From Octopus sinensis (taxonomy: Eukaryota): a DNA stretch of 64,000 nucleotides. The DNA is taken from assembly GCF_006345805.1 (NCBI RefSeq), contig NC_043010.1, forward strand, positions 57,660,001 to 57,724,000, read 5' to 3'. The number at the start of each line of letters is the position of its first letter. Position 1 is the first letter of the stretch. Below, one piece after another: positions 826 through 62,333 of this stretch. Both the position numbers and the translations under genes were made by a program. The notes beneath the pieces were generated by a model. That model was not told the origin of the DNA, ran no database searches, and worked only from the letters and a program-made list of their open reading frames with translations.

Positions 826-1039
826 CTTTTCTACCCTAGGCAAAAGGCCCGAAATTTTGGGGGTAGGGGCTAGTCAATTAGATCAGCTCCAGTATGCAAC
901 TGGTACTTAATTTATCGACCCCAACAGGATGAAAAGCAAAGTCAACCTTGACAGAATTGGAACTCAGAACGTGAAGACAAACGAAATACTGCTAAGCATA
1001 TCAGCCAGCGTGCTAACGATTCTGCCAATCACCACCTTA
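826..1039 (-). mobile_element. tRNA-derived SINE, family A (Meta-domain-like core)
   Basis: Reverse strand: tggcagaatcgttagc head, gttctgagttccaattc B-box-like, core gactttgcttttcatcctgttggggtcgataaattaagtaccag; homologous to 1407-1791. Confidence 0.8.
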
Positions 1040-1406
1040 GTATTGCATATAATACTTTGTGTTAGTGGTTACAGTAGTCAAGTATTAGTAGTTATAATAG
1101 CTACTGTTATTGGTTAAAGTAGTTAGTATTGATTATAACAGTGTGTAGGTGGTTATGAGAGTTCATGTTAGTGCTTATAATATTTAGTATTGGTGGTTGT
1201 AGAAGTTAGTATTGATGGTAATAATAGCTCTGGTTACAGTGTTTAGTGTTAGTGGTTATAATAATTAGTGTTGGTGAATATAACAATTAGTATTTTTGGT
1301 TATCATAAGTAGTAGTGGTGGTTATAGAAGTTGTAAATATAGTTTATAATAAATAGTGTTGGTGGTTGTAATGGTTTGTGTTAGAGTTTATATCATTTAG
1401 TATTGG

Positions 1407-1791: not shown

Positions 1792-2224
1792 TATTGCTGG
1801 TTATAGTATTAATATTGGTCATTACAGTAGTTTGTAATTTGTAATGATGGTTGTTATATATTTATTGCATGAAAAGAATGTCTACAAGTTCAAATATTCC
1901 TGAATGCTGTCTTAAAGCCACTTCAAAGTTACAGTCAGGTCTTTTTGTATCATAAATATCTAAATTCTACATTTTGTACTGAAATATTTCAACAGTGAAT
2001 CTCCTTGGTGTTTTAAGATTATTTATGTGTATATGTTCATAAGTCTGTATGTTTAGTGTAAATATGTGTATAAGTGTAAATGTATATGTGTAGAAATTTA
2101 TGTGTGTATAGAAGCATCTATGTTTGCTCTCATTCTCCTTCTATTATCTATTTCTCTCTCTCTCTCTCTCTCTCTCTATATCTATTTATCTATCTATCTA
2201 TCTATCTATTTCTCTCTCTCTTTC

Positions 2225-3285
<1,061 letters not shown>

Positions 3286-5687: not shown

Positions 5688-5737
<50 letters not shown>

Positions 5738-6237
5738 TAAAGTTAATCCAACTTTATATATCTATATACATACGCACACACACACATATATATATATATA
5801 TTTATATATATATATATATGTGTATATATATACATATATATTTATATATACACACACATATTTATACATACAGATAAAAACATACATGCAAACATACATA
5901 TATATATACATATATTTTTGTGTACACACACACACACACATAAATATATATGTATGTGTATATATATGCATATATATATTTATATATACACACACATATT
6001 TATACATACACATAAAAACATAGATGCATGCATATATATATATATATATATTTATACACACACACACACACACACACACGTATATAGATATCGTCATTGT
6101 ATCATATATCTGAAAGAGAATCACATACTTTAAAACATAGAGCAGTAATGTATCTAGAAGCAATTAAGCCTATGTCCAAACCATTGGTCACTCTATGGCC
6201 AGACATATTTAACTGCTTATAAAGATACATATACATA

Positions 6238-8931: not shown

Positions 8932-8965
<34 letters not shown>

Positions 8966-9389
8966 AACATAACACATATAGACATATACATATATACACA
9001 CACACACACACATATATATATATATGTATATATAAATATATATATATACACACACATATGTATACATACATATATATACTTATATATATATACATATATA
9101 TATATATACAAACATATATATACAAACACACACACACACACAAACATATATATATATATACACACATATATATGTAGTCAATTTGACAATTTGAGAATAT
9201 AAACCTTTCATAGTGATGGTTTCATCCAAGTTAGGCTGGTTTAATATATTATACTATGAAGACATATCTTCTCTTTAATAAATATATCATGAATATCAAA
9301 TATTAAGCTAGAAAATGAAGAGATTTAACGGATAAAATTAATCTATTAATTATTTAATATTATCCATTAAATCTTTCCATTTTTGTTTC

Positions 9390-9446
<57 letters not shown>

Positions 9447-9448
<2 letters not shown>

Positions 9449-9612
9449 GTAGTGGGATTCTTTTAGTTTCCATCTACCAAATCCCCATACAAAGCTTTAG
9501 TTTGCTTGGAACTATAAAGGAAGACATTCATCCAAGGTGCCATCTAGTGGAACCGAACCCAAAGCCATGTGGTTGGGAAATAAACTTCTTATCACACAGC
9601 CACACCTGTGCC
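9447..9612 (-). mobile_element. tRNA-derived SINE family C head
   Basis: Matches 14643-14805 (ttcagtttccatctaccaaatcc...ccaaggtgcc...gaacc...catgtggttggg...cacacagcc). Confidence 0.8.
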
Positions 9613-10332
9613 ATGCATATGTATATATACGTGTGTGTGTGTGTGTGTCTGCAAATGAATGTGTGTATGCATGAATAAATCACATATATAATATACACTC
9701 ACACATACATGCATACATACATACATACATACATACAGATGGATAGATAGATAGATAGGTAAATAGATAGATAAAAATGTATGTTATACACAAATATTTG
9801 TTCTTATTTTTATCTGTTGTTTGTGCACCTATTAGTGTGTGTATGTGTATGTGTTTGTGTGTGATATTATCTTAGAATGTTGGTAAGGTTTGTTGGTGGG
9901 TGTAGTAGTGATGAGGGAGGTGTTTATTGTGGTGGTGGTGGTGGTGATGAGGATGAGGATGATGGGAAGTGTATACAAGTAGAGAAGCAGACAGTAAAAA
10001 CAATACCATTTACAACAGCAATAATAATGATGATGATGATGATGATGGTGATGTTCTTAAACACAATTGTCAATACCAGGAAACTCCAAGATATCGGAAC
10101 TAGGAAAAAATTGTTCTCCCTGTCAACTTGAAAATGCTCGATTTCAAATCCAACAGAATCTTATTTCTGCGATTTGGGTCTCCTTCCCATAAAATATATC
10201 GTTGATAATCATTAATAACAGCCACAGTAAAGTGGTTCAACATGTTGTCACTTGAGCTCTCTGATTGAGGACTTGGAGCAGCTCATATAAAACAAAGCAA
10301 CAATAACATTATTATTAATAATAATAATAATA

Positions 10333-10370
<38 letters not shown>

Positions 10371-10685
10371 TAATATAATTAATCATAAGAAGAAGAAGAA
10401 AAAGAAGACAATCTTTTGCACTTCTTGCAGGGATGGTAAGCCAGGGATCTTAACTGGTACATCACACGTATTGAGAAGAGCATTGTTGATGTGAGAATTA
10501 TTACTACCCATGTATTTTAATTTAACTTAAAAAAAAAAAATTTTTTTAAATGAACGAACTATTGAGTTTAGTTTAATGGCCTACCAATGTATACTATGAG
10601 TTTCTTTGCCCTAGGAGTCGGGAAGACACTCGGCAAGAAATGGAAGCAAATTTGAAAGAAGAAAAAAAAAGTAATAATAGTGATG

Positions 10686-10735
<50 letters not shown>

Positions 10736-11569
10736 CCTTTCTACTATATTAAAGACAATATAAGGATGAAAAGTAAACGTAAACACACAAACAGCACAAT
10801 GCAAGCTTTGGGGCCTACATCATTTATGAAGAGGCTGGCTAAATTACAGGATATACAAACTATACCTGAACAATTAAGAAAATTACCCCAATTGTTAGAT
10901 CATAATAATAATTTCTATAATTTCCACACAGTTGACTGATGAAGGGATAATAACGGGAGACTGGTAAGGGGACAGTTAAGAGAGCCAGTTGAAGGGACAG
11001 TTAAGGGAAACAGGTGCTAAAAAGTGTGGTGTGTGCTTGACAGAAATCAGTTAAATGAATGAGGTGAATATGAAACAAGATCTGAAGGGAAGGGCACCAC
11101 TACTAGGGGTCATAAAGTAAACCCCTCAGATCCAGAAATACGTTGATTGACAAGAGTATGTCTCCTTGTCCAGCTGTGATTCCCTGGCCCCTATTATGAA
11201 GATAAGTGGGTCTTAACACTAGGGCCACACATATCTGTTTCTGTACATTCACTGGGGACAGACAGTACCACCCCCTCTATTGTCATCACTCTCCTTACAA
11301 TGGGATCAACAACAACACTGATGATGGTTTCAAATTTTGGATGAAGGCCAGCAGGTTTTGTTGGTAGGGGTTTAGTTGAGACACCTTGACCCTTAGATGC
11401 TTGAAAAGCTCACTATTTCATCAGCTCTGGGTAGGATTTGAACTGAGAATGTTTGGAGCTTGAGCAAACACTCAAAAGATTCTGCAAATCCACCACCCTG
11501 ATGATGTCAATGATGATGATGATGATGACGATATGAGGACAATGATGATAAGAATTCCAAAAATAATAA

Positions 11570-11762
11570 TGGTCTTGGGGGGTGGGGTGTAAATCATTCA
11601 CATCAAACGCCCCCCCCCCCAGTCCCCTCAACTGGTCCTTATTTTACTGACCCTGAAAGGACGAAAGGCAAAGTTGACCTCGACGGAATTAGAAACTCAG
11701 AACATCAAATCGGACAAAATGCCATCAAACATTTCATCCGGCATGCTAACGAATCTGCCAGG
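11570..11762 (-). mobile_element. SINE family A copy (second degenerate copy at ~11330-11500)
   Basis: actggtccttattttactgaccctgaaaggacgaaaggcaaagttgacctcgacggaattagaaactcagaac...gctaacgaatctgcca. Confidence 0.75.
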
Positions 11763-11856
11763 ATAATAATAATAACAACAACAATCAGAAGAAGAAGAAG
11801 AAGGAATACATCAACTACAAGAAGACTAACAACAAAAGAAAAGTGTAAACACTTAC

Positions 11857-11890
11857 CTTCATGGTAGACTTGACAGGTACATACTTTCCA
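11857..11890 (-). other. Candidate exon or first-exon 3' end with strong donor (ACC ATG AAG|gtaagt)
   Basis: Minus strand: catacag|TGGAAAGTATGTACCTGTCAAGTCTACCATGAAG|gtaagt; consensus donor, ACC before ATG. Confidence 0.4.
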
Positions 11891-11903
11891 CTGTATGTAT
11901 ATA

Positions 11904-11947
<44 letters not shown>

Positions 11948-12174
11948 AAGTGTGTGTATATATTATATCACCTGCAGCATCAACAGCACTGTTGTTGTTG
12001 TTTTTGTGTTGTTATTGTGGTGGTGGTGGTGTCACAAACTATTGCAATGTTACACATACACACAGCAACTTCAGAAAGGTAAACTAGTCACCTGTGTGTA
12101 TACATGTGATATGTATGGATGCATGTATTTATTATATATATAAAAATATATGTATGTATTTGTGTGTGTGTATA

Positions 12175-12267
<93 letters not shown>

Positions 12268-12432
12268 ACTTATGTATATAAGATAGGCAGATAGATTTAC
12301 AGACACATTTTGTTAGAGCATGTATATATACATGTATGTTATATCCTGATCAGTAAAAATATCAGAATGGTGTTGTTGATGGTGGTGGTGGTGGTGGTGT
12401 TAGCAGTGGTGGTGGTGGTGGTGTCATAGACA

Positions 12433-12463
<31 letters not shown>

Positions 12464-13479
12464 TCTATAGACCAGTTTCCGAAAGCCACCCTAGCCTAAC
12501 TGTGATAAGAACATCCACGCAGTTGTAGTAACACAGCTCTCTCCACTCGCTGACTGTTTTTACTGAATGAACAAATCTTCGCATCACACATCACTCACGG
12601 CTCACACACAAACACACACACACACACACACACACATCACTGGACTACCACTCAAAATACTCCCTCCCCACTCTCTCTCTCTCTCTCTCTCTCATCTCTC
12701 CATTTCTCACTCAATTATTTCTCCCCCTCTCTCACCGTAGCTTCCTCTTTCTTTCTCTATCGCTCTCTGTCACCGTTTTTATGTGCATTTATGCACTTCT
12801 GAGCACACATGTGATGTGTGAGTATGTGTGTGTGAGTGTTTGCACATGTACATGTATGTGTGAATGCATGTGAGTGTATGTTTGTGCATGTATGTGCTCA
12901 TATGTGTGAGCTTGTGTGTGTGTCTAGGTGTGTGTGTATATGTGTATATATACATATATGTAAATGTGTACTTGTGACAATGACTTTGTGTGTGTGCGTG
13001 TGCATTTGTTTCTGTGTGTGGGATTATGTGTCAGCATCTGTCTATGCGTAAGCGTATTTGCACATAGTTGTGTATATCTGTATGTGTCGCCTAAGTTTTT
13101 CTATGCGTATCAAGTGTATATATATATGTTTGACTATAAATATGTGTGTGCGTATGTATATGTATTCAAGTATGTGTATGCTTTTGCTTGTATTCCGGCA
13201 CTTGTACTTGTGTGTGTATGTGTATAACTATCTGTGTTTGCCTGTATGTGTGCCTCTCTGTGTGTGTGTATGTAGAATATTTTTGCTGCTGTTTACAACC
13301 AGACATGTTACGCTCGAGTGTGTGATTTCAGTGCCATTAGTGAGGTCAAATTGGAACTCACAATGCAGAGGCTCACAAAGGGCTTCCTTTCTTGCATATA
13401 CACAAACACACACACACACACACATATATATACACATGTATATATAAATATATATACATATATATATACATATATATAT

Positions 13480-13523
<44 letters not shown>

Positions 13524-13939
13524 CATATATATTATATATATATATGTATACATATACATGTATACATATATACATATTGATATATATATACATGTATACA
13601 TATACATGAATACATTATATATATATATTTATACATATATACATATATATATATACATATATATATATACATATATATATATACATATATATATACATAG
13701 ATATATATACATATATATATACAATATATATATATATACATATATATAATACATATACATGTATATATATACACACACACAGACACACACACATGTATGT
13801 ATGTGTATTTTTCTTATCGAATTGGTGTGTAGTAATGTGTAACTTTTGATGTGAGTGGGTGGTGGGTGCATGTATGTTTGTGTGTACATATACATATATA
13901 AGTGTGCTTATATAAATATTTTTTTATCCATTTTCTCAG

Positions 13940-13990
13940 GTGGAAGGGACTATGTTCATTGCCTTTGTAGACCTTTCATTTGTAAGGAAG
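13940..13990 (+). CDS. Candidate 51-nt exon (VEGTMFIAFVDLSFVRK or GRDYVHCLCRPFICKE)
   Basis: Strong acceptor tttttttatccattttctcag, donor AAG|gtatat, length a multiple of 3, unique sequence between microsatellites. Confidence 0.35.
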
Positions 13991-14250
13991 GTATATGTAC
14001 ACACACACACGCACACATATATATATAGTAGACATGTGTGTTTGTGTGTGTGTGAGTGCAAGTATGTTTGTATGGACACTGGAGGTGCATACATAACTGG
14101 TTATGTACACGTATATATATGTCAGAATGATAGCCTGTAAATACATGCATAACCATAACAAAATTTTTTGATATCTTTGACATGAAGATAAATAGCACAC
14201 ACACACACACACACACACCTTATATGGTATATTAGAATATGATTAGTTTT

Positions 14251-14296
14251 CTATTACTTTAAGTTTCATACTAAAGTGTACAATCATCAGATGACT
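14251..14296 (-). ncRNA. Hammerhead ribozyme motif with weak stem I
   Basis: cat-CTGATGA-tt gtac acttta gtat-GAAA-ctt a aag-TA-atag. Confidence 0.55.
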
Positions 14297-14409
14297 GAAC
14301 TTCAAAAGAACTCATCCATAAATATATTCATTGTACACAGGGTAATGAATAACTTTATTTTGGTTTGGTCTCTGAAATAGAATTCAAACCTTACATATAT
14401 ATATATGTA

Positions 14410-14805
14410 TATTCTTTTATTTCTTATGGTCATTTGACTGTGGCCCTGCTGGAGCACTGCCTTTAGTTGAAGAAATCAACCCCAGGACTTATTCTTTGTA
14501 AACCTAGTACTTATTCTATCAGTCTCTTTTGCTGAACTGCTAAGCTTTGGGGATGTAAACTCATCAACATTGGTTGTCAGGTGATGGTGGGGCAAGGGGA
14601 CAAGCACACACACACACACATAAATATATATATACATACATATACGATGGGCTTCTTTCAGTTTCCATCTGCCAAATCCACTCACAAGACATTGGCTAGC
14701 CTGAGGCTATAGTAAAAGACTCTTGCCCAAGGTGCCATGCAATGGGACTGAACCCGGAACCATGTGGTTGGGAAGCACGCTACTTACCACACAGCCACTC
14801 CTGTG
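14410..14805 (-). mobile_element. Full-length SINE family C: tRNA head, internal (TG)/(TA) microsatellite, CR1-like tail
   Basis: Head 14643-14805; tail 14410-14610 containing (minus strand) gtgctccagcagggccacagtcaaatgac. Confidence 0.85.
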
Positions 14806-14825
14806 CACATATATATATATTATAG

Positions 14826-14856
<31 letters not shown>

Positions 14857-14909
14857 CACACCCACACATACATATATAACATACACACACATATATATAT
14901 ACATATATA

Positions 14910-14952
<43 letters not shown>

Positions 14953-15468
14953 ATATTGGTGTGTCATGAATTTATGGAAATAAATCCCATAAAACTCAAC
15001 AATTTTGTTAAAAATGGAGAAGAGAAAATGTTAAAATGTATAAGTGAATTTTAATTCATGCAGATGATCGTTTCGTACAGAGATATAAAAATTATGCAAA
15101 TTCATGGTGGAATAGAATTAATTGAATTAATTAGATTCATTTAAATTAATTATATATCGCTGTACTCTTTAGAGTAAGAAGTATAAACAAAATTTTTACA
15201 AAGCACTTGAGAAAGGGAAAAGCAGAATAGAATCTAGGAGATTCCTATTTATCCTTATGAGAAAGCAAGGGATATGGGAGTCCAGTTAGGTGTTAACTAT
15301 AACTAAAGGCTGTAAACTACCAGCAAAATAGGAAGAACCAATATTAAAAATGTTTTTTGGAAACCTCCAAATTGAAGGACGAATCTAATTCAACCTTTTT
15401 ATACACACATAAATATGGTATTCTCTATAAACTGAGAAGGCAAGTTAACTTTAACCCTCGGCAACCGG

Positions 15469-15530
15469 GTGACAGTCACTGATGAGGATTAATCAAATCT
15501 GAAATCATCGATGATCTGGCTCTGTGTCAC
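15469..15530 (+). ncRNA. Type I hammerhead ribozyme, canonical core, palindromic stem III
   Basis: gtgac agtca-CTGATGA-ggatt aatca aatct-GAAA-TCATCGATGA-TC-tggct ctgt gtcac; all core nucleotides intact, stems I and II paired, predicted cleavage after 15516. Confidence 0.85.
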
Positions 15531-15606
15531 TTGCTGTAAGGAACTTGTCTCCTTTGTCAGTCATTAGATAAGTGCTTCCCTGTGGCTAAGAGTTGTTCTA
15601 ATTCTT

Positions 15607-15695
<89 letters not shown>

Positions 15696-15719
15696 CATGT
15701 GTGTATCTCTATGAATGTG

Positions 15720-15932
15720 TCTTCATTTGTATTTGTCTTCCAGCATCATTTCAGAACTGGTATTGAATTGTTTATGCTTCCATAACTTAGTAGTTCAGCA
15801 AAAGACATTGATAAAATAAGTATGACATTTACAAAAACATTAAGTACTGGGGGTCAGTTTGGTTGACTAAACCCTTCAAAGTGTTGCCCCAGCATGGCTG
15901 CTGTCCAATGACTGAAACTGATAAAAGACAAG
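15720..15932 (+). mobile_element. SINE family C 3' half
   Basis: cataacttagtagttcagcaaaagac...taagtactggggg...ccagcatggctgctgtccaatgactgaaac. Confidence 0.75.
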
Positions 15933-15999
15933 AGACTTGCCACAAAAGTAGTATTAGAATAAAATAGCCAAATGTGTATCATAATTAATGCAGATACAC

Positions 16000-16950
16000 C
16001 ATGAAAGGCAAATTAAGTGTGGGATTCATCCAAGGATAATATCCCTCATGAATGCTTTGTGTTTCAAACCACAAAGCTTTATCAGTAACCAATGAAAATT
16101 GTCCAGCAGTTTAAATGGTTGGGTATACATTTCTGCTTGATTGTGCTTCGTCAGTAGCATGTACCCATTACCAGCTGCAGGTTAAGGCAAAATACATCAC
16201 TATTAATACAGAAAAAGCAGAAATTGAAAAAAGTGACTGGTATTGCAGAAGTAAATGGTCAAATCAATCGGTTTGGCTGGTCAGCTGAATAAGTTTTAGA
16301 CTTGGTTTATAACATCATGACAGACATTTCAAAAGAAGTTGCTCAATAGGAATATCCCTTGTTCTGAGAATTATGGTGATGCTGATAAAGGACATTATTG
16401 AATATTTTCCTACTTGGCTGTGTTTAGGATTTTGGTGCAAGCAAAGGAATTGGTGATAACCAGTAATTGTAGTTACAAAAATGTAGACATGATCAGCCCT
16501 GGTTAGATCCACCCATATGATACATCATAGACAAGTGGGAATAACAACCTTGACTTGTGGCAGGGATCAAGTTAACAGCTTTCAATGAGGTTAACATGGT
16601 GCCTATCCTTAAGATTACCAGTTTCAACCCTGTCATGAGAGAATGGAGGAAATCAATATGCAATCTTATCTGTCTGGAAGTCAGATTTCATAGCCACCTG
16701 CCAGAACCATATCAAATCATTGGTGTTACATCTCTTATGTATGTTTTAAGCTTCAAGTTACTGTTGAGGGATTTGAGAAGGTGAGGAGCAAGAGGGCCAT
16801 GCTGGCATTGCAGACAATGTCACTATAATGATGTCAGAAAGCATGGGAGTGAAGGTCATCATCCCTGAACCAAAGGAACAACCAGATTCTTTTTGAGGAT
16901 GATGGATGATTAATGGACCAGTTAATCTCTGTGGGATCCGGTTCAGCCTG
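16000..16950 (-). mobile_element. Highly decayed retroelement coding remnant, possibly Penelope-like
   Basis: Non-repetitive, multiply interrupted frames with FNNVLYQ (RT-like) and CLTC/GMN-like traces; weak. Confidence 0.3.
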
Positions 16951-17729
16951 GAATGTTGTTATGAGCAGGGTGGCCATCACCATTGCACGCAACCTCCGTT
17001 ATTGGCTTCTTGTTGTCTTGTTTTGGTTATTAACATTATCTCAATAACCACCAACACTACCACCACCACTACAATGACCACTATCACTATCATCACCACC
17101 ACCCCCATCACCACCACCACTGCCGCCACCACCATGATCACTACCATCACTACCACCATTATCATGACTGCCACCATTCCCACCAACACCCTCATTAGAA
17201 GCAGCAACACCACCACGACCCCCACCCCACCTACTACCACCACCTCTAGCATTACTGTTGTAGTTTAAAATATTTAATTCGTTGAAAGATATTTTCCTAA
17301 TCATTATTAATTTGTTTCTATTTTTTCAATCGATTTTCCATCTCCCCTCCACCACTCCACTACCCATATATAGCCCTCCCTCCCAACATGCCCACCTCTC
17401 CCTAATAGAAACTGAAGATATCTCACTACTATTACACTTTTTTCGGTGTAAACTTGCACATATACATTCTTGCATACACACAGATATATCACACATACAG
17501 AAACACACACGTGTATCCATCCATCCATACATACATATATACATGGACATATACACATCTTCATAGACATGTACATACACACACATGCAAGCAGATATAC
17601 TTACATAAACACACTCAAACACACACACATATATACATACACATGCATACACACACATATACATAGACACATACACACATATGCATACATACTCATAGTA
17701 ACATACATATCTATATCTACATACATATA

Positions 17730-18370
17730 CACACAGCTTTGTGATAGAACTGTCGCTCGTACGCAGTGTGGAAGTTATCAGCCATATCATCAGCAGCTGA
17801 CCCAAAATGTCCGCAAGGCACAATGTTCCCATGAGACATGACATTGCTGCCAAAACCATTTACGCTGCTATCGACAGAGAGGATTGTTCTAGCGGTCATA
17901 GAAATGGTACAGCAAAGCCAGAATTTATTCACACCTTTCAAACAAGAAATAACATTCAAATAAAAACAACAATCCATGACAAACACAACAGACCTGATAT
18001 TGTTGGAGGGGAGGGGCAGGGAACAAACGTCATGCACTGTTGTAGAGGTCAACTGGCCAGCAGATGCAAATATCACTTTGTGCAAAAAGAGAACATCGGG
18101 TGTGAACTTGTGCCACATAGATTTTCTATCAGGCATACAGATTTCCGTTTGCACATATTTTCTTTGGGTATATTCGGCTAAGTAAGAACAGATTTGCAGA
18201 AAAGCCTCAAAGTGCTGTAGTTTTCCAGGAAAGAATAAATCAAAGTGACTTGCATTCTCCAAATCTAATTGATTAGGGGTGCACTGAAGATTTGGAAAAC
18301 ATTTTGAAGGTTCTCTATTTCAGTTTCCTGCAATGAGCCTGACACTATCACATCAGTATGTATGCCATAG
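17730..18370 (+). mobile_element. R4/Dong-like non-LTR retrotransposon 3' fragment (CCHC knuckle and restriction-like endonuclease)
   Basis: VEVISHIISS-x-PKMSARHNVPMRHDIAAK, HNRPDIV, frameshifted to TVVEVNWPADANI (PD-(D/E)xK RLE motifs). Confidence 0.8.
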
Positions 18371-18467
18371 ATACACACATAAAGACTAATCACACATGCA
18401 CCCAACTATGTATACTCCTCTATAATGTCTCTATTTGTAAAATAACTTATTCATAAATTTACAGATT

Positions 18468-18517
18468 AAGTCATCCTGAAGATTCCTAAAAAGGGTGAAA
18501 CAGTACTGTATAAGATT
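18468..18517 (+). ncRNA. Hammerhead ribozyme motif with degenerate stem I
   Basis: agtcatc-CTGAAGA-t tcct aaaa aggg t-GAAA-CAGTACTG-TA-taagatt. Confidence 0.6.
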
Positions 18518-20566
18518 GCCACTACCTTGAAATTGTAAGAACTTCAACATAAATAATAATTAATAGAAAAATTAATTTAAATTATATATGTGGTCTCTTT
18601 TATATTTTACATACCTTTTGATTTCAAATTCAAAATTTTAAACCCAACACGTTGCTCAGAGACAGCTACCTCCCTTTGTAATAATGGCCATCCAGAGGGT
18701 GACGCAACATCACTACAAACCCGAATTTCATTCTCATATTCATTAAATACCGGCAAGTGTGAATAGAGTGCAAGTAAGCTGGCCAAACTCACGTCATCTG
18801 CTGCACCAATTCTCAAGCTATTCATGTTGCTGTATTAGCTACAATATGTCCTTCCATTTTTATGATTCTACTATGTCACTTAAGAGATTTTAGCTGCTAT
18901 TTCTTGCAGATTGAAGGACTGCATAGTGATTCTAGCATTGGTGCATTTGTTTATAGAAGCAACCCTATTCTAATGTTGATCTCTGTTACGTGTCACAATT
19001 AGGTTGTTAGGGACACAACACTTCTATAATATAGGGGCTGATTCTGCCATAAAGTGATGTAGTATAAACGAAGGTATTTTGATTAATTAAAAAAACCATT
19101 AAAATTAGTCATAAGTGATGAGGAAAACTAATCAGAAGAATTAAAACAACTAATTGTCATAAATGTAAATAAAATAAAATTAATTGAATATGGTATACAG
19201 TGGCAACAGTGAGTGAGAGTAAAGGGGAGCAACTGTGAGCATGTTTATATGTTATTACACCTCATCAGCAGAGCAAAATACTGAGTGTTAGGGGAGAACC
19301 CCTCCCCACAGACGTTGCTTGAAGATTTAATAGTAAAGTGACACTGTCATACTTGATGGAGTGAGTCACTACAACCAAAACATTAATACTACCACTACTA
19401 CTACTGCCCTTACCGCTATGACAACCACCAACAGCATACCAATAGCATTACCACTGCAACTGTAACAGCAATACTACTAACATCACCACCACCATGAACA
19501 ACAACAACACTAACAACAACACTACAACAGTTTACCATTACCACCACTCGTACAACACCACCAACAATAACAACAATAGAAACCACCACCACCAACAACA
19601 ACAACAAGCACAACAACTACAACAATGAACAGGTCATAAACCATCGTTAACAAAACCCTGTAAACTCTGTGCCAATCTTATATTCACACAGTAAAAAGAG
19701 GAGTAAATTAAGTGGAGGGGGAGCGGAGGGGTGAGGTGGGGGGGAACCATTTTGTCAAGTAGTCAGTCTTTATTATAACTAGACTCAACTTCCTCAATCA
19801 AACCCATTCCTTCCACCACTGCTTTCTCTCTACCTCTTCCCTCTCACTCCCCACCCACCGTCTCCCTCTTAGGCCAGTATTTTGGCAACGTTTACCTTTC
19901 TTTAAAGAGATACATTATTAGCAAGAAATTCTCGTATTTCTTCATAATATTCTTCCTTACTCTCCTTCTAACTTTTCTCTTGATTCTTTCACCTTTTTTT
20001 CTTCATACTATTAAATATAACTATCTTATATATATATATATATTATATATATATATATATGTATGTGTGTATGTGTGTATGTGTGTATATATATATATAT
20101 ATGTATACATGTATATATATATACATATGAATATATATATATGTATGTATATATATATGTATATATATATATTTAATTATATATATATATGCATGCATAT
20201 AAACATGTATACATATACATATATATATACATACATGTATATATATATATACACATATATATACACACACATATATACATATATATATATCATTCTTTAT
20301 ATATTACGTGTGTGTGTTTTGTGTGTGTGTGTAATATGCATACACACACGTTTTTTATATACATTATATATCTTTGTACATCTTCATACAACATTATACT
20401 ATTATGTACAACTTTATAGAGCTTTATATATTTTTATATATACACTTCTTCATAAATTGTTATAGTTGTTATATATTTTATATATCATTATACTACATAT
20501 ATTCACACACACACATTTATATATGTGTCTGAATGGATATCTTTGTATATGTATGCATATATGTGC

Positions 20567-20604
<38 letters not shown>

Positions 20605-20704
20605 TATATATACATATCCTCATTCACAGATCTTTATGCATCATTATATGTCTTTATATAACATTCTTTATATATCCATACTTCTTCTTTGTTTCTTCAA
20701 CGAA

Positions 20705-20743
20705 CCCCACTCCCCCACTCCCCCACTCCCCCACTCCCCCACT
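20705..20743 (-). repeat. (GAGTGGGG)n 8-bp tandem repeat, G-quadruplex-capable
   Basis: Five runs of 4-5 C separated by act on the + strand. Confidence 0.7.
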
Positions 20744-21014
20744 TTCTCCACTTCTCTTTAAAGCCATCATTACAGTTTCACTTTTTCTCATTTTATCTTC
20801 TTCACCACCACCACCACCACCATAACGACATCACCACTTCCCTCACTACTACTACTTCTACCCACAGCATACTAAAGCATTCTACACTCTTGCGCAACAA
20901 CCTATACAATTCTACACTTTTATACACAACTCTACATTACTCTGTCTGATTCTTCATAGTTCTATACAATTCCAAAACATCTTATACAACTATACAGCGC
21001 TCTGCACTATATAT

Positions 21015-21062
<48 letters not shown>

Positions 21063-21105
21063 TACTCACACACACACATATTTAAGCATATAATTATAAA
21101 TCTAT

Positions 21106-21588
21106 AATTATAATTAAGGGTGTTGGAGGGACAATGCCAAAACACTAGAGGTAGATGTCAAATGTCTACAAACCACTCTAAATTTGTTTTCCTAGTGACT
21201 ATATCCTCAATTTATATGCATATATAATTTTGAGTTCTCTCATTATTATATTTGCTCCGGTACTCTTCTGACAATAACCCCATGGCTGAGATGGGTGATT
21301 AGATATAACGTATGGGCAGCAAATATATCTATATATTGATATCTGTATGCAAGTATTTATCGGTATCTGTATATATTTTTCATTAAATACTGAAGATTGT
21401 AAAGTAATTTTTATTAAAAAACCCGAAATCTTAAGATATAGAATTGTCCAAAATTTTATAAATCTTCTTCTCCATTTCCTCACATTCAGCCTTGTGCAAA
21501 AAAAGAACAAATTTAGAGTGGTTTGTAGACATTTGACATCAACCTCTAGTGTACTGGTGTTGTCCCTCCAATTCCCTTAATTATAATT
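21106..21588. repeat. Inverted repeat (~84 bp arms, 21106-21189 / 21505-21588) enclosing an HHR motif at 21386-21442
   Basis: gatgtcaaatgtctacaaaccactctaaatttgtt versus aacaaatttagagtggtttgtagacatttgacatc; internal CTGAAGA-28 nt-GAAA-TCTTAAGA-TA. Confidence 0.85.
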
Positions 21589-21709
21589 GTGTACTTAAAT
21601 ATTAATTTGACTGATATGGTACCCTTTATATGCTGGTCACTAGTATAATCATTTTAATGACTATATCCTCAATTTAAACACACCCACACACACACACGCA
21701 TATATATAG

Positions 21710-22930
21710 TCGTCTTAAGCAGAATTAACACTGATTTAGTTCTGTCTATGCAAAGAGCCAGTATAGTTTTAAGTGAGGTCAAGGGTCAATGGATATGATA
21801 TTCAGTTTGCGGCAAGTTCAGGAGAAGGCCCAGGAGTACAATAAAGGCCTCTATGTGGTATTTGTTGACCTCACAAAAGCCTTTGGCTCAGTATATAGAC
21901 AGGCTTTGTGGAAAGTATTAGCAAAACTTGAGATTCCCAAGCACATGCTAAAGGTCATAGTGTCTCTACATAATGATATGAAGGCTTCTGTTCGAAAGCA
22001 AGGTTCTGTTTTGGCACCAGTATTATTTGCACTAGTTTTTGCAGTAATGTTGGATTGTGCCTTTTCTGATGTAGGATAGAGAAACCAACAGCATTTTGGG
22101 ACTCATTGTTTTCAGATCATCGTGTTCTTGGTGCTCATACCCTTGAGAACATTCAGCACATCATTTATAAATTTGCAGCAGCAGCCAGATGTATTGGTTT
22201 AACTATCAGCATAGAAATGATTGAACTGTTGTATCAGCCACATTCTGGTAACAATCTAGAAATCTTGCCCTGCGTGTTTGTTGAAGCAACACTCTGGAAA
22301 CTGTTGATGCTTTCACATATTTGGGTTCTATAGTAACAAGTGATGCTAAACTTGATAGGGAGGTCCAGAATGGTATTGGAAAGGCCAGGACAGCTTTTGG
22401 GAAGATTCACGATAGACTTTGAAATGCTTGTGATATTTCAATAAGTACAAAAATTGATGTGCCCAAGTCAGTTGTCTTAAGAACTCTTTTATATGGATCA
22501 GAAACCAGGACATCTTATCATAGGCACATCAGTCAGTTTCATATGAGATGTGTTAGGCAAATATGCAAGGCTGGGTGGGATGATAGAGTGAAGAATGGCA
22601 TTATCCTGAAAGTGCGTGGAATATCTCTGGTAGAGAGGCATTCTTGATCAAATCTCAAATGCAATGCTGTGGACACAGTTTTTGCACGAAGAGTGGTCAA
22701 TTACAAAAACAGATCTTTTATGGTCAGCTTGTAAATTCACTCTGCAATATAGACTGATTAAAAGATAACTTGAAATGCTTGAGAATTAGGAAAGAAAATT
22801 TTGAGAATCTTGCAAAAGACCATGCAAACTGAAGAAGAGAGGGTTCTTGCAGCTTCCAAATTTCAAAACCACATCAAAAGCATTTATGGGGAAAGAAGAA
22901 AGGAAACTGACAGAACAACAGTCTTCCAGT
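21710..22930 (+). mobile_element. Decayed RTE-clade LINE reverse transcriptase fragment
   Basis: DMIFSLRQVQEKAQEYNKGLYVVFVDLTKAF, KQGSVLAPVLF, VDAFTYLGS...IGKARTAFG, TLLYGSET; internal deletions and stops. Confidence 0.92.
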
Positions 22931-23164
22931 AAATAGCCATTGCCCACATGGTGGTTTCTTAGATAAGTCATGTCCATCTCCATATTACTTTTGGTGACCT
23001 GAGCACTTAGATGAGGAGTCATCAGGGGAAGTGAATGAATCGTAACCATTGGTGAATAGTAATAGGAATGTGAGTTGATTGTCTTTCTTTGGTTGTTTTT
23101 CTTTTCTGTTTTCTCACTGAACACTCATCATTGTCTTCGATGGAAGAGTGCACCACATACACAA

Positions 23165-23315
23165 GCAGAGCTGTTTGTTTCCCCAACCACATCTTCCTGG
23201 GTTCAATCTCAATGCTTGGCACATTGGGCAAGTGCCTTCCTCTATAGCCCCTAATCAACCAAAAGCATTGTGAGGGGACGATTTGGTAGACAGAAATAGA
23301 AAGAAGTCCATCATA
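23165..23315 (+). mobile_element. SINE family C head
   Basis: cccaaccacat...gggttcaatc...ttgggcaagtg...atttggtagacagaaa. Confidence 0.75.
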
Positions 23316-23540
23316 CATCTATGTTGTATGCATGCCAATTGAAAATAATATATATATATATTATATATATATATTATATATATATATATATATATCATCA
23401 TCATCATCATCATCATGGCATTATAAAATAAATATATTTAAAGGGAATAATTAATAAATGTTTCCCTTATGAGGCTTTTCATGCTAACTACTTGATAAAT
23501 TCTTATAAAGATTTTATCCTATTTTTAAATAATACGTATG

Positions 23541-23622
<82 letters not shown>

Positions 23623-23739
23623 CGTATGTAAATATATATATATATATATATATATATACGTATGTATATATATATATAAAATAGAATACATACACACACA
23701 CACAAATAATATATAGAAAGGAAGAAGTGGGAATTAAAA

Positions 23740-23821
23740 TTTTCTACAGCTGTTTCGGTAGAATTTTATTGATGGATTTATAGAAGACATAATAGCATAA
23801 ATCCACCATCTTCTGGTAAAA
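23740..23821 (-). ncRNA. Degenerate HHR with extended stem II
   Basis: tttac-CAGAAGA-t ggtgga...tctacc-GAAA-CAGCTG-TA-gaaaa; U4 mutated. Confidence 0.55.
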
Positions 23822-24170
23822 TTTGAAACAGGAATAAACAAGTGAGATAGGAACTTGATAATGATAAATTCAACTGACATTTTGGATATATAAATAAATA
23901 TATACATATACACACAAACATAGAGAGAGAGAGAGTGGTGAGAGAGAAATATGTGCATGATTTCAACACAAGAAATATTAGTAAAACTTGTTCTAAAAGG
24001 AAACAGGGTGAACCTTTTTGTAGTCATATGACACTGACACCCTATGCGATGTTCTATGAAGGAGATCACAAACCTAACAGTTGTACGCGTCTCATTTGAA
24101 ATCTGTGAAAAGAGAACATGGATGGTCACCTTCTTCATAAATAATTACTGCATCCCCAGATTATGTTTAA

Positions 24171-24380
24171 TCCTTTAGCATTTAAACTGACCACATCAGA
24201 CCACAATAGTCAATGTTCAAACCAGCCAGGTCTGGCCTCTCACACCTAGCCTACAATACCATTCTAAAACTAATTAGTAACATTGTCAAAACCTTGAAAT
24301 TACAAGATGATGTACAACTAATTTAAACAATGTGAATAAATAAGCATTACATTTGACCGAGTAATCTGAATGCTAAAGGG
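24171..24380. mobile_element. piggyBac-type MITE (210 bp)
   Basis: TTAA on both sides (24167-24170, 24381-24384); TIR tcctttagcatt / aatgctaaaggg. Confidence 0.85.
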
Positions 24381-24744
24381 TTAACAGTTAAATTGTTTGA
24401 GTAAAAATGGTAAAAATCTGGGGATTTAGGAAGAGAAAGAGATTCTCAACTTCATATTCTCTTTCTGTGAATCAAGGAAAATATATGAGACTTTTCAAAA
24501 TTATGTAACTTTCTGCTGTTGTTGATGTAAAAGGTCCATTAATAGTGTTTTGTTTACAAATTTCGATGTATAAGCTATTTCATTAGAGAAGATTAGATGA
24601 AATAAATAAAAAAAAAACAAATCTTATTTTACCATTTTTAGGAGAGAGAATGGTAGGGTTCGTGACCTTTTATTTTTAAGGGTTTCTTAGTAGAATGAAG
24701 TGAGGACACTCGGCTGAAATGCTTGCAAGAAAGTGGACTCCACT

Positions 24745-46039: not shown

Positions 46040-46850
46040 CTTTGTATATATACACACGTGACCTTCAATCTTTGTTAAAAATTTCCTTGTGCCTTCTATA
46101 GTATGCAGGAGACATAATACCCTCTTCTGGATTATAAGTGAATTCAGAAATTGAGTTCACCACACCGTCTGGCATAAACGAACTTACTGAATTTTCAGAC
46201 TTCTTTGACTGTAACTCAATTAATTGTTGCTGTTGTAATATTTGCTTCTGCAACTCCTGTAGTTGTTTTTGTTGCTTCTCTTGAGGGCTGTATTACTGCA
46301 ATCAATAGGCTCTCCATAATCTAACAATTTGTATGACCCACAAATTGTTAAATAACCTATGTGAACTTTAAAAAATCCTCTTCACCAGATGTTATATCCT
46401 TATACCTCCTCCAATATCACAGTACGGTTGATATGGTCACATGACAGATAAAGAATGCATGGGAACAAACAGTGTTATAACAGTACAAAATAGAAACAGC
46501 AGCAGAAACAAACACGTAACGAACTGACAATCAATATTTCCAAGAAAACTTCCTCGAACTGTAAATTGCACCTGGACTTTGAAGAGCAAACTACAAACTG
46601 CTGACTACATCAGACTGCTACTATTTAGGGAGAGTTTACGAAAAAAAAAACAAAATATGAAGACAGGTGGTGTACAAAACAAACAGATGTATTAGTATAA
46701 CACTCAGGAATAGAAAAAGTCTTTTACGTTTCGAGCCTACGCTCTTCTACAGAAAGGGACAGAAAAAAATGTGTGTAGTGGCTAATGATCTATCATGGCG
46801 ACTGTTACTATTTATATGTAGTGATCCCATCTGTTCTTGTTACCACAACA
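46040..46850 (-). mobile_element. Gypsy-type LTR retrotransposon remnant: 5' LTR (~46390-46850), PBS, gag N-terminus
   Basis: Minus strand: LTR TG...CA, TATAAATA box, PBS-like tggtgaagagg (46377-46387), gag-like QQQQLIEL...NSISEFTYNPEEGIMSPAYYRRHKEIF. Confidence 0.7.
46628..46799 (-). mobile_element. ~170 bp HHR-bearing short element with 14-15 bp TSD (HHR 46721-46756)
   Basis: TSD gactgctactattta (46613-46627) / gactgttactattta (46800-46814); cttt-CTGTAGA-a gagc gtag gctc-GAAA-CG-TA-aaag; second copy at 62155-62333. Confidence 0.8.
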
Positions 46851-46859
46851 AACCCCCTC

Positions 46860-46995
46860 AGTCAGGCAGTAAAGTGGCACTGGAAAAGATGTCTTACAGT
46901 ATTCCTTCTGGTTCTTTTGCATTCTGAGTTCAAATTCCACTGAGGTCAAATGAACCTTTCAGTCCTCTGAAGTCAATAAAATAAATTATCAGTAA
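46860..46995 (+). mobile_element. SINE family A, degenerate (also 50835-50990 +, 25060-25150 -, 37470-37570 -)
   Basis: ttctgagttcaaattccactgaggtcaa...gtcaataaaataaattatcag. Confidence 0.6.
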
Positions 46996-50445: not shown

Positions 50446-51849
50446 GTAATGAAAGACAAGAGTTGATTATGGTAGGACTTGCACTCAGGATGTGAAAAGC
50501 CAAAATACTGCCAGGAACTTTATCCAAAGCCCCAATGTGATGCTGCAAGATCTCATCATTAGGAATATCTGGGTTTCCTTGACTACAGAAAAAGACATAA
50601 TTTTAGGAGTGATTTGTTTCTGAACACAGCAGGATGTTATAAGGGAAACACAGGGTAATGAATCTCACCTGTTAGAAGTTAATTCCTCATTTCCATCAAT
50701 GACCACCTCACTTAAATATATGGATTCTCCATATATGTATGTCATATGACCTATTTATATTTTCTGCCAGTGTGTGCCTCATTCTTCTTCATCCAAATCT
50801 GACTGTTGATGGGGACGGGGTGGGAAAGGGAGGAATTGCTAAAGCATCAGACAAAATGTCTTGTGGTATTTCTTGCAGTTCTTTACATTGTGAGTTCAAA
50901 TCCTACTTAGGTCATCTTTGCCTTCCAACTCACTGGAGACAATAAAATGAGGAAGCACTCAAACGCTAGGGTCAGTGGTATCAACTAACCCATCCATGTG
51001 GCTTTCTGGACTCAGTAATCATGCATGTTTTTGTAACTTGTCTGTTCATGTAACCCCATGTTAAGATTTATTACTCCATGGATATGTGGTTGCTTTTATC
51101 AACTAATTATTTTATTTCTAAGGTTAAGCCCCACCCCACAAACATACACCCACACACAAACACACACATAAGACCACACACATGCACACATGAAGCGTAC
51201 ACACACTTCACTTCTTTACTCACTCTACATGTACTACATGTCTGCACATGTAGTACATGGTCTGAATTCTGTGACTCTGAAATCAATATCATGGCAAAAA
51301 AGGAGAATAGTAATGATGACGACGACGATGATGATGATGATCATCATCATCATAATGACGATGATGATGATGACCACGATGATGACGATGGTGACGATGA
51401 AACCTTGTCTAAATTGCCATGCCATTATTCCTAAGCCAGGCCGCAATCCAGTTTAGCACCAACTCCCCCCCCCATTTCCCTCCATCCACCACCACCACCA
51501 CCACCGCCGTCGCCGCCATTACTATCACCATATAAAATAAATTACAAATAATTAATTCTCTCCATTTTATTTTTTATTAAATTCTTTAAAATTGATTTCT
51601 GACATTTTCTTCTCCACTTTTTGTGTTTTTTTTCTTTAAATATTTTCTTCTTCCATTTTAACCCCCAAACCATACCTTTCGCCACTCCACCCCCGTGTGG
51701 TTGTCATCACTACAGTGAAATGAGGGGGGAGAGGGGGGAAAAGGAGAGACACACAGACACACAAAATCAAACTCATGCAATATTATACACAGCCTCCCAC
51801 ACACATTCACTTACATGAACTCTCACGCACACATATATGTAGACAGTAT

Positions 51850-56749: not shown

Positions 56750-56952
56750 TGTGACTGCGTGTGTACTGTTGGCGATTTTTACCTCTGTCTTCCCTTCTTT
56801 GGACCTTTCCTTTTTCTATGTTTCTGATGAAGAGCTCCGCTCAAAACGTTAAACCCTCCTTCTTTCCTTAGCGTCCAATAACACTATACTTGTTCTACGT
56901 CCTTGCATTGTTGTGTTTTCTCTTGGTGTTTTCATGTTTGGATTAACTTTAC
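56750..56952 (+). mobile_element. ~200 bp HHR-bearing short element ending in (TA)n (HHR 56820-56854)
   Basis: gttt-CTGATGA-a gagc tcc gctc-AAAA(G12 mutated)-CG-TT-aaac; homologous to 59905-60092. Confidence 0.7.
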
Positions 56953-59904: not shown

Positions 59905-60092
59905 GTCGTGTTTTTTTTCCCTCCGTTCGCACACCTCGGGATCTTTCTTTCTCTTATGTTTCCGACGAAGAGCTCTGCTCGAAACGTGATACCCTCCTTC
60001 TTCCCTTTTTCCTGAGCGCCTAATAATAATACTTTAATTGTTCCACCTCCTTGTGTTGTTGTTTTTTCTGTTTTCCCGTTTGGATTAACCTT
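59905..60092 (+). mobile_element. HHR-bearing short element, second copy (HHR 59958-59992)
   Basis: gttt-CCGACGA-a gagc tct gctc-GAAA-CG-TG-atac; ends tttggattaacc(t)(ta)n like 56750-56952. Confidence 0.7.
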
Positions 60093-62069: not shown

Positions 62070-62154
<85 letters not shown>

Positions 62155-62156
<2 letters not shown>

Positions 62157-62333
62157 TGGTAGCCACTACACACATTTTTTTTCTCTCCTTGATTTTTCTG
62201 TGTCCCTTTCTGTAGAAGAGCATAGGCACGAAACGTAAAAGAATTTTTCTATTCCTGAGCGTTATACTAATACATCTGTTTGCTTTGTGCACCACCTGTC
62301 TTCGTCTTTTGTTTTTTTTCATGAACTCTCCCT
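62155..62333 (+). mobile_element. HHR-bearing short element, second copy of the 46628-46799 family (HHR 62206-62241)
   Basis: cttt-CTGTAGA-a gagc atag gcac-GAAA-CG-TA-aaag; flanked by (GATA)n and (TA)n. Confidence 0.78.

What the first reader, a model, noticed from the sequence alone, without database searches (positions are those of the whole stretch)
46613..46814. 170 bp non-coding HHR element with a 14-15 bp TSD inserted at the TATA box of a Gypsy LTR
Seen: gactgctactattta / gactgttactattta flank the element, and the duplication overlaps the LTR TATAAATA box. A near-identical element with the same 3' end lies at 62155-62333. No tRNA head, no ORF, no poly(A). Inference: direct evidence that these ribozyme units retrotranspose as small discrete elements into TA-rich targets. 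Related elements at 56750-56952 and 59905-60092 suggest a superfamily.
Basis: partly seen in the sequence, partly recalled or inferred. Interest (0 to 1): 0.75.

Follow-up and report, generated by a model that had tools for sequence, protein, structure and literature searches.

The report
Short Penelope-end insertion in retrotransposon LTR
A 172-base non-coding repeat carrying a minimal hammerhead-ribozyme motif with one altered core letter sits in an old LTR between two copies of a 15-base target, and it is most likely an ordinary short copy of the end of a Penelope-like jumping gene rather than a new self-contained mobile ribozyme.

Summary
A 172-bp insert (46628-46799, minus strand) lies between 15-mers that match at 14 of 15 bases. 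Paralogous LTR contigs in 3 of 4 related-species runs lack about 187 bp (172+15) here, so this is a real insertion with a TSD, at a TATA box of an LTR with PBS and gag-like remnant. The motif has the minimal type I hammerhead shape known from Penelope-like elements (PLEs), but its core reads CUG-U-A-GA (A6 replaced), so cleavage is doubtful. The inference that it proves a discrete ribozyme transposon goes too far. A comparator family with the same motif (59 loci from metagenome contigs) gives equally short copies with 13-15-bp TSDs, and in 10 of 59 loci the motif follows a GIY-YIG-like ORF end. Short TSD-flanked copies are therefore what PLE terminal repeats produce. In that comparator, 40 of 58 copies start 0-9 nt before the core, about 30 nt after a TATA box, which suggests run-off at the RNA start. 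Whether this element's 5' end is such a fixed end or a plain truncation is unresolved; its parent PLE was not found.

The parts
46628..46799 (-). 172-bp non-coding insert, inferred terminal-repeat (pLTR) segment of a Penelope-like element
   Evidence: homology to the 62.2-kb copy; thousands of contigs in each of 4 runs, most depth on this part
46613..46627 (-). TSD copy at the element's 3' junction; begins with TA where sister copies end in (TA)n
   Evidence: 6 of 32 listed LTR contig pieces stop at 46627
46800..46814 (-). TSD copy at the element's 5' junction, overlapping the TATA box; 2-5 nt of likely microhomology with the element family
   Evidence: family contigs align to 46801 and 46804 (tables 5c and 8)
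46721..46756 (-). minimal type I hammerhead motif: 4-bp stem I, core with U at position 6 (46749), bulged A, 4-bp stem II, palindromic ACGU, predicted cut after 46725
   Evidence: sequence; pair counts; no Rfam match
46390..46850 (-). LTR of an LTR retrotransposon (TG..CA; about 274 bp without the insertion), TATA box starting at 46816; the 5' limit is read from the sequence only
   Evidence: paralogous contigs cover it to about 46830
46375..46387 (-). PBS-like tract starting TGG, 2 nt after the LTR end
   Evidence: sequence; the matching tRNA was not tested
46068..46292 (-). broken gag-like frame downstream of the PBS
   Evidence: (DUF7083 E 0.0018, below cut-off); no hit
62150..62332 (+). 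second copy of the same family, between (GATA)n and (TA)n-rich repeats; same U6 core; no readable TSD
56801..56950 (+). sister-family copy with canonical CUGAUGA core; 5' limit not fixed (coordinates are the part shared with the 59.9-kb copy)
59939..60092 (+). sister-family copy with decayed core; 5' limit not fixed
5731..5751 (-). 18-nt 3'-end fragment of the sister family with a short inverted piece, in (TA)n

Best explanation
The 172-bp insert is a TSD-flanked copy of a very abundant repeat with a minimal hammerhead motif, and is most likely the terminal-repeat segment of a Penelope-like retrotransposon that was pasted in by that element's own endonuclease and reverse transcriptase. Shown: insertion, 15-bp duplication, empty LTR site, motif geometry, shared 3' end. 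Inferred steps: a GIY-YIG endonuclease nicked the AT-rich TATA box of an old LTR; reverse transcription primed on the TA at the nick, about 117 nt downstream of hammerhead stem II; the cDNA ended after about 190 nt and was joined over 2-5 nt of microhomology; a second nick 15 bp away gave the TSD; about 18 nt were lost from this copy. The hammerhead is likely a passenger here, since its core lacks A6 and its predicted cut site lies inside the insert, not at an end. The 5' end is either a plain early stop (about 0.45) or run-off at the RNA's start (about 0.35); both are included in the confidence.
For: Empty site: joint 46606->46806 with 12 letters between (net 187 = 172+15) in 3 of 4 runs, a second joint 46594->46806 with 17 letters between in 2 of 4 runs, and 6 of 32 listed pieces stopping at 46627. 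Motif: matches the PLE min-HHR description of PMC4209133 (4-5-bp helix I, extra base between 9 and 10.1, G10.1-C11.1, palindromic 15.2-16.2). Across 12 chosen sequences 88.9% of cells pair and 3 of 4 stem I pairs change on both sides; slid controls give 22-36%. Comparator with the same stem II and GAAACGU: in 10 of 59 distinct loci a GIY-YIG-like ORF ends 81-135 nt before the motif on the same strand, with a CxxxxCxxC linker as described for Neptune PLEs (PMC8557442). TSDs of 12 bp or more flank 11 of 52 testable copies, or 9 of 50 after removing one duplicate locus and one simple-repeat case, all nine 13-15 bp, against 0 of 600 mismatched flank pairs. In print: PLEs cut AT-rich DNA and prime internally 111-118 nt after the start of stem II (PMC11167929); the four window copies end 115-123 nt after it (sequence). 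Most single min-HHRs were read as truncated PLEs (PMC4209133). PLE TSDs of 8-10 bp with an empty site are described (PMC3846280).
Against: No PLE ORF was linked to this family: tblastn of the comparator ORF ends found nothing in the window (best E 1.0), no genome is held, and the exact motif had 0 hits in metagenome and viral contigs. The comparator resembles the element only in the motif (no BLAST hit at E 1e-3), so the PLE link is by analogy, and its GIY-YIG score is below Pfam's cut-off. The comparator's 3' ends lie at other distances from stem II (two clusters, about 87 and 148 nt), so the match to the anole figure may be chance. The empty-site joints rest on one contig per run with only 22 letters on the short side and diverged letters between; an exact 46627->46815 joint is not among the 15 shown (11 not shown). 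Two contigs in one run show head-to-tail copies that start at 46804, which also fits a self-standing unit.
Confidence: 0.8

Rival explanations
1. Sub-case of the best explanation: the insert is a fixed-length product. Reverse transcription primes internally in the 5' terminal repeat of a PLE transcript (or of a transcript from a promoter-bearing solo repeat) and runs off at the RNA's start, giving a start-to-tail mini-copy that leaves its promoter behind.
For: Comparator: 40 of 58 copies match the family for only 0-9 nt upstream of the core (mode 7, 11 copies), and 10 of the 18 longer copies have TATAAA at -35 to -37, so the mode lies about 30 nt after the TATA box. Short plain copies of about 150 bp carry 11-13-bp TSDs (L009, L053, L069; 5 of 26 at 10 bp or more, two of them in simple repeats, against 14 of 600 controls). 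Here, the 46.6 and 62.2 kb copies begin within about 10 nt of each other and two tandem contigs start at 46804. Internal priming is shown in vitro (PMC11167929).
Against: In the comparator the end lies 7 nt before the core; here it is about 65 nt before. The comparator set is left-censored, because the search needed the whole motif. No transcription start was measured. Summed depth of the 5'-most bin is 14-83% of a 3' bin across the four runs (the tool warns that depth does not rank parts). I recall, from no call, that longer copies of such repeats exist in octopus assemblies.
Confidence: 0.35
2. One reading: a self-standing non-autonomous family (a non-LTR retrozyme monomer or SINE-like unit) with its own source genes, processed by its hammerhead and moved in trans by a PLE.
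For: Very many contigs carry it (8,942-24,511 laid per run). Head-to-tail joints exist. Retrozyme monomers, TSDs longer than 4 bp and a pLTR origin are described (PMC7229834; bioRxiv 10.64898/2026.07.22.740005). Non-autonomous PLE derivatives exist (PMC8557442).
Against: The element's ends are not at the cut site. The core lacks A6, and a natural A6C variant cleaves slowly (PMC3088659). The motif is of the minimal PLE type, not the canonical retrozyme type. All four window copies are single. No internal promoter or tRNA head was seen.
Confidence: 0.12
3. A short element moved by a LINE (RTE, L1/Tx1 or similar), which also makes 10-20-bp TSDs, or a fragment captured in break repair.
For: An RT fragment lies at 21777-22076. 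Long TSDs and 5' microhomology are typical of LINE-type insertion (established knowledge).
Against: No poly(A). The 3' end and motif follow the PLE pattern, and the comparator shows PLE-linked copies making TSDs of this size. Break repair would not be expected to respect the shared 3' end and leave a clean duplication.
Confidence: 0.06
4. The two 15-mers are a chance or pre-existing repeat of the LTR.
For: Near-identical 15-mer pairs at this spacing occur elsewhere in the window (234 overlapping pairs).
Against: They abut both ends of the repeat, and paralogous LTR contigs are shorter by the insert plus one copy.
Confidence: 0.02

Closest known systems
Minimal type I hammerheads in the terminal repeats (pLTRs) of endonuclease-bearing Penelope-like elements, mostly found as single motifs (Cervera and de la Pena 2014, PMC4209133)
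   Same: 4-bp helix I, extra base between 9 and 10.1, G10.1-C11.1 pair, palindromic ACGU in place of helix III; dispersed single copies in several families per genome
   Different: Core has U at position 6 in both window copies of this family; the variants described in the parts I read are U3-A8 and bulged or extended helices. No parent ORF was found here.
Short and solo pLTR insertions of Penelope, Poseidon and Neptune PLEs (PMC3846280; PMC11167929; PMC8557442)
   Same: About 200-bp unit, AT-rich or (TA)n targets, TSD with an empty site, 5' microhomology, fixed 3' end downstream of the hammerhead
   Different: TSD of 15 bp against 8-10 bp in the rotifer paper (13-15 bp in my comparator); no inverted pLTR or tail extension seen in this copy
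Non-LTR retrozymes of animals (PMC7229834; bioRxiv 10.64898/2026.07.22.740005)
   Same: Short, non-coding, low GC, type I hammerhead, PLE-related, TSD longer than 4 bp when present, monomers occur
   Different: Retrozymes are defined as tandem repeats with working (canonical) hammerheads that give unit-length circular RNA; this copy is single, minimal and non-canonical in the core, and its ends are not the cut site
Plant LTR retrozymes (PMC5680766)
   Same: Non-coding, hammerhead, association with a Gypsy-type LTR
   Different: Those carry type III hammerheads in their own LTRs with PBS, PPT and 4-bp TSDs; here the LTR is only the target of the insertion

Membership tests
Penelope-like element terminal repeat (EN+ PLE) | Minimal type I hammerhead geometry near the 3' end | tested here: met
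   description in PMC4209133
Penelope-like element terminal repeat (EN+ PLE) | Linked to an RT plus GIY-YIG ORF | tested here: inconclusive
   none in the window; met only for the comparator family, 10 of 59 loci, Pfam score below cut-off; no genome held
Penelope-like element terminal repeat (EN+ PLE) | AT-rich or microsatellite target with a variable TSD | tested here: met
   3' junction at TA/TAAATA and 15-bp TSD; the other four pieces end in (TA)n-type repeats. The 15-mer as a whole is 10 of 15 A/T, no richer than the window (GC 0.32-0.38).
Penelope-like element terminal repeat (EN+ PLE) | Shared 3' end with variable or inverted 5' ends, partial tandems, tails | tested here: inconclusive
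   shared 3' ends in 2+3 window pieces, one 18-nt fragment with an inverted piece, tandem joints; too few copies for a distribution
Hammerhead ribozyme (active) | Conserved core C3 U4 G5 A6 N7 G8 A9, G12 A13 A14 | tested here: not met
   U at position 6 in both family copies; no change back is among the 40 best-supported of 187 differences in four runs; canonical in the 56.8-kb sister copy at 3-9
Hammerhead ribozyme (active) | Self-cleavage after N-U-H | not testable with these tools
   needs an in vitro assay of dimers, with and without PLE protein
Non-LTR retrozyme | Tandem units, each with a complete type I hammerhead | tested here: not met
   single copies in the window; a few head-to-tail joints elsewhere; core incomplete
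Non-LTR retrozyme | Unit-length linear and circular RNA | not testable with these tools
   no run on record as RNA was listed and all listed runs are contigs
SINE (tRNA/5S/7SL-derived) | Pol III head and LINE-like or poly(A) tail | tested here: not met
   none seen in the 172 bp; no Rfam tRNA match
Ty3/Gypsy LTR retrotransposon (the target) | TG..CA LTR, PBS, gag start | tested here: met
   (weak protein support; none)
Ty3/Gypsy LTR retrotransposon (the target) | pol order RT-RH-IN and RT phylogeny | not testable with these tools
   no pol remains next to this LTR in the window (one search lists no such ORF)

The most novel reading that the evidence does not exclude
PLEs routinely make a discrete class of promoter-less mini-copies that run from the transcription start to the internal priming site, and this family is such a class amplified to very high copy number with a hammerhead whose core has a fixed A6-to-U change. 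The fold would then be kept as a protein-binding or priming signal rather than as a ribozyme (or cleave only with protein help). This copy, having landed in sense orientation just behind an LTR TATA box, could have regained a promoter.
Probability: 0.3. Interest if true: 0.6.

Novelty: new member of a known kind. Interest (0 to 1): 0.35.

Why it matters
As it stands this is a clean example of a known thing: most such copies land in microsatellites, where TSDs cannot be read (PMC8557442), and this one shows a 15-bp TSD with an empty site. Two leads go further. First, the comparator's 5' ends pile up about 30 nt after a TATA box, a genomic prediction of the internal-priming mechanism shown in vitro. 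It would explain why animal genomes hold thousands of single minimal hammerheads but few whole PLEs, and how retrozymes could arise. Second, a high-copy family with an altered core is a natural test of whether PLE hammerheads need to cleave at all, which is an open question in the papers read.

Tried and rejected
No whole genome is held, so no genome-wide length or TSD distribution for this family. Rfam: whole-window scan swamped by microsatellite matches (150 of 395 listed, none a hammerhead); local scan gave no hammerhead. The repeat finder was swamped by microsatellites. The exact family motif had 0 hits in metagenome and viral contigs; the relaxed motif had 0 in prokaryote genomes and viral contigs. 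Searches with the antisense translation of the insert, meant to reveal upstream continuation in mis-called proteins, gave 2 unrelated repetitive proteins and no candidate. No RNA holder was listed and no run held more than 33% of the words, so expression was not tested and the laid runs are relatives, not the source. Whether the orthologous site in those relatives is filled could not be told: near-identical LTR pieces stop at 46616. Loose ends at the element's 5' boundary were not among the 24 shown (1,152 not shown). Single-strand folding does not give the hammerhead fold as the minimum-energy structure, as expected for a motif thought to work as a dimer; not counted either way. No TSD is readable at 56.8, 59.9 or 62.2 kb (best 6-9 nt, in TA repeats). 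A gag homologue search found nothing. Literature on the core variant: a search for the core string gave 456 papers, none of the 15 listed on ribozymes; Lunse et al. on PLE hammerhead variants (PMC5785218) is not held, so novelty of the U6 core is not established. Searches for the start-site run-off idea listed no paper stating it by title or abstract start; supplements of the PLE papers were not read and may bear on both points. An octopus-like source is my recollection from the repeat landscape and was not tested.

Full report
Observation. They enclose 172 bp. On the minus strand this insert matches the copy at 62.2 kb at 89.9% over 149 nt; a gapped alignment shows homology almost to the 5' end, an internal loss of about 18 nt in the 46.6-kb copy, and the same 3' end. 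The copies at 56.8 and 59.9 kb are 75% alike and form a sister family. A scan for 3' ends found 2 pieces of the first family and 3 of the second, against none in the reversed window; the third sister piece (5731-5751) is only 18 nt long and has a short inverted piece. Near-identical 15-mer pairs 100-400 nt apart are common in this repeat-rich window (234 overlapping pairs), so the pair alone would prove little.

The target. On the minus strand the flanks read as an LTR of about 274 bp without the insertion (TG at 46850, CA at 46390), followed after 2 nt by a PBS-like TGG tract and a broken gag-like frame. Protein support is weak but consistent: Pfam DUF7083 at E 0.0018, below its cut-off, and Atlas clusters labelled Artverviricota at 0.90-0.92; a homologue search found nothing. 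No pol is left, so 'Gypsy' is likely, not shown. TATAAATA starts at 46816, about 30 nt before an initiator-like CAGT in the uninterrupted LTR (sequence). The duplication starts two bases into the box, so only the upstream copy keeps it, 17 nt before the insert and on the same strand.

Empty-site test. No genome is held. I laid contigs of 4 of the 24 listed runs (four organism labels, none holding more than 33% of the words) on 46200-46880 at 80% likeness. A joint 46606->46806 with 12 letters between appears in 3 of 4 runs: a net loss of 187 bp, the insert plus one target copy. A second joint, 46594->46806 with 17 letters between, appears in 2 of 4. Six of 32 listed pieces stop at 46627 without entering the insert. 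Limits: one contig per run, 22 letters on the short side, diverged letters between, and no exact 46627->46815 joint among the 15 shown (11 hidden). The insert is far more abundant than the LTR (summed depth 1-9 million against 0.4-14 thousand in run X1; the tool warns this is no copy number; 8,942-24,511 contigs laid per run). Family contigs align 2-5 nt into the upstream target copy (a piece to 46801, two tandem joints at 46804), which I read as 5' microhomology.

The motif. At 46756-46721 the minus strand gives a 4-bp stem I, a 7-nt core, a bulged A, a 4-bp stem II with G10.1-C11.1, GAA, palindromic ACGU and a cut site after 46725. This is the minimal PLE hammerhead of PMC4209133 (parts 1-2 of 4 read). 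Rfam does not detect it. On 12 chosen sequences (4 from the window, 8 comparator loci picked partly for their differing flanks) 88.9% of cells pair, 3 of 4 stem I pairs change on both sides, and slid controls give 22-36%; stem II does not vary, partly because the comparator was found with it. The core has U at position 6 in both family copies, where the sister copy at 56.8 kb has the canonical A. No change at 46748-46749 is among the 40 best-supported of 187 differences in the four runs, so U6 is probably the family state. None of the 71 comparator loci has it. A natural A6C variant cleaves at under 0.1 per minute (PMC3088659, passages), so activity is doubtful; it was not tested.

Comparator. 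A relaxed motif search gave 71 metagenome loci, of apparently animal DNA, 59 after merging duplicates and 58 after dropping L065 as the same locus as L007. They resemble the element only in the motif. In 10 of 59 a GIY-YIG-like ORF ends 81-135 nt before the motif on the same strand (Pfam GIY-YIG E 0.0016, below cut-off), with the CxxxxCxxC linker that PMC8557442 (passages) gives for Neptune PLEs. TSDs of at least 12 bp flank 11 of 52 copies with enough flank (9 of 50 without the duplicate and one simple-repeat case, all 13-15 bp) against 0 of 600 mismatched pairs. So short hammerhead-bearing units with TSDs of this size are normal products of a PLE terminal repeat. The 5' ends are not random, however: 38 of 57 copies extend at most 20 nt upstream by gapped extension, 40 of 58 match for only 0-9 nt with a mode at 7, and 10 of the 18 longer copies carry TATAAA at -35 to -37. 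The peak thus lies about 30 nt after a TATA box, where a start site is expected. The set is left-censored and no start site was measured. Among 26 short copies without an inverted part, 5 have a TSD of at least 10 bp (two in simple repeats) against 14 of 600 controls.

Mechanism. I infer target-primed reverse transcription by a PLE protein acting on RNA of its terminal repeat: a nick in the TATA box, priming at TA, cDNA of about 190 nt, a 5' join over short microhomology and a second nick 15 bp away. [quoted passage not shown] The four window copies end 115-123 nt after stem II (sequence), though the comparator's ends differ. PMC3846280 (passages and section 6) describes 200-bp pLTRs with TATA and initiator, 8-10-bp TSDs, an empty site and solo pLTRs. 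PMC2377424 (passages) places the Penelope start inside the pLTR. The preprint 10.64898/2026.07.22.740005 (parts 1-3 of 5) states that most PLE insertions are 5'-truncated with one terminal repeat and derives retrozymes from pLTRs. I put 0.8 on a PLE terminal-repeat copy (0.45 plain truncation, 0.35 run-off at the RNA start), 0.12 on a self-standing retrozyme-like family, 0.06 on LINE-driven or repair insertion and 0.02 on chance.

Comparison and novelty. It works like a short PLE insertion; membership is met for motif shape and target, and open for the ORF link. It fails the retrozyme definition (single copy, incomplete core, ends not at the cut site; PMC7229834 passages; PMC5680766 parts 1-2 of 4; PMC6765202 passages). 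Two cephalopod repeat papers list PLEs as abundant and, in the passages searched, do not mention ribozymes (PMC13282606, PMC8967140); that the window is from an octopus is my recollection, untested. I found no paper on the U6 core or on start-to-tail mini-copies, but a key catalogue of PLE hammerhead variants is not held and no supplements were read. Verdict: a real, well-formed insertion of a known kind, with two testable leads. Interest 0.35.

Noticed in passing
L001-L071 (comparator PLE family): 40 of 58 copies start 0-9 nt before the hammerhead core, about 30 nt after a conserved TATA box seen in the longer copies (a CCAAT lies further up); 12 of the short ones carry an inverted copy directly upstream; 3' ends form two clusters about 60 nt apart; TSDs are mostly 13-15 bp.
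   Followed up: partly
window 46816-46786 (-): The retained LTR TATA box lies 30 nt before an initiator-like TCATT inside the insert, at the spot where this copy differs from the 62.2-kb copy; the LTR promoter could fire into the insert. May be chance.
   Followed up: no
window 5731-5751 (-): 18-nt 3'-end fragment of the sister family preceded by a short inverted copy of its own end, in (TA)n: a minimal PLE-type insertion.
   Followed up: partly
window 46716-46757, loose ends: In all four runs many contigs share only the hammerhead part and continue with other, related sequence on both sides: further subfamilies with the same stem I 3' arm.
   Followed up: no
window 15479-15504 (+): A second, unrelated CUGAUGA...GAAA motif inside a long predicted hairpin; could be a hammerhead variant or a C/D-box-like RNA; Rfam gives only sub-threshold snoRNA matches.
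   Followed up: partly
window 46883-46986: The LTR's upstream flank holds another dispersed repeat with copies at 1478-1542, 1661-1717 and 50850-50948; a G-run precedes the LTR's TG like a polypurine tract, although a PBS follows the LTR.
   Followed up: no
window 21777-22076 (+), 2057-2779 (+), 17801-18181 (+): An RT fragment (Pfam RVT_1, E 2e-9) and two frames that look, from recall only, like C-terminal parts of other non-LTR elements (no Pfam match).
   Followed up: no
window 328-1354: Degenerate tandem array of short TGGTTATAAT-type units, source of many of the near-identical 15-mer pairs.
   Followed up: no
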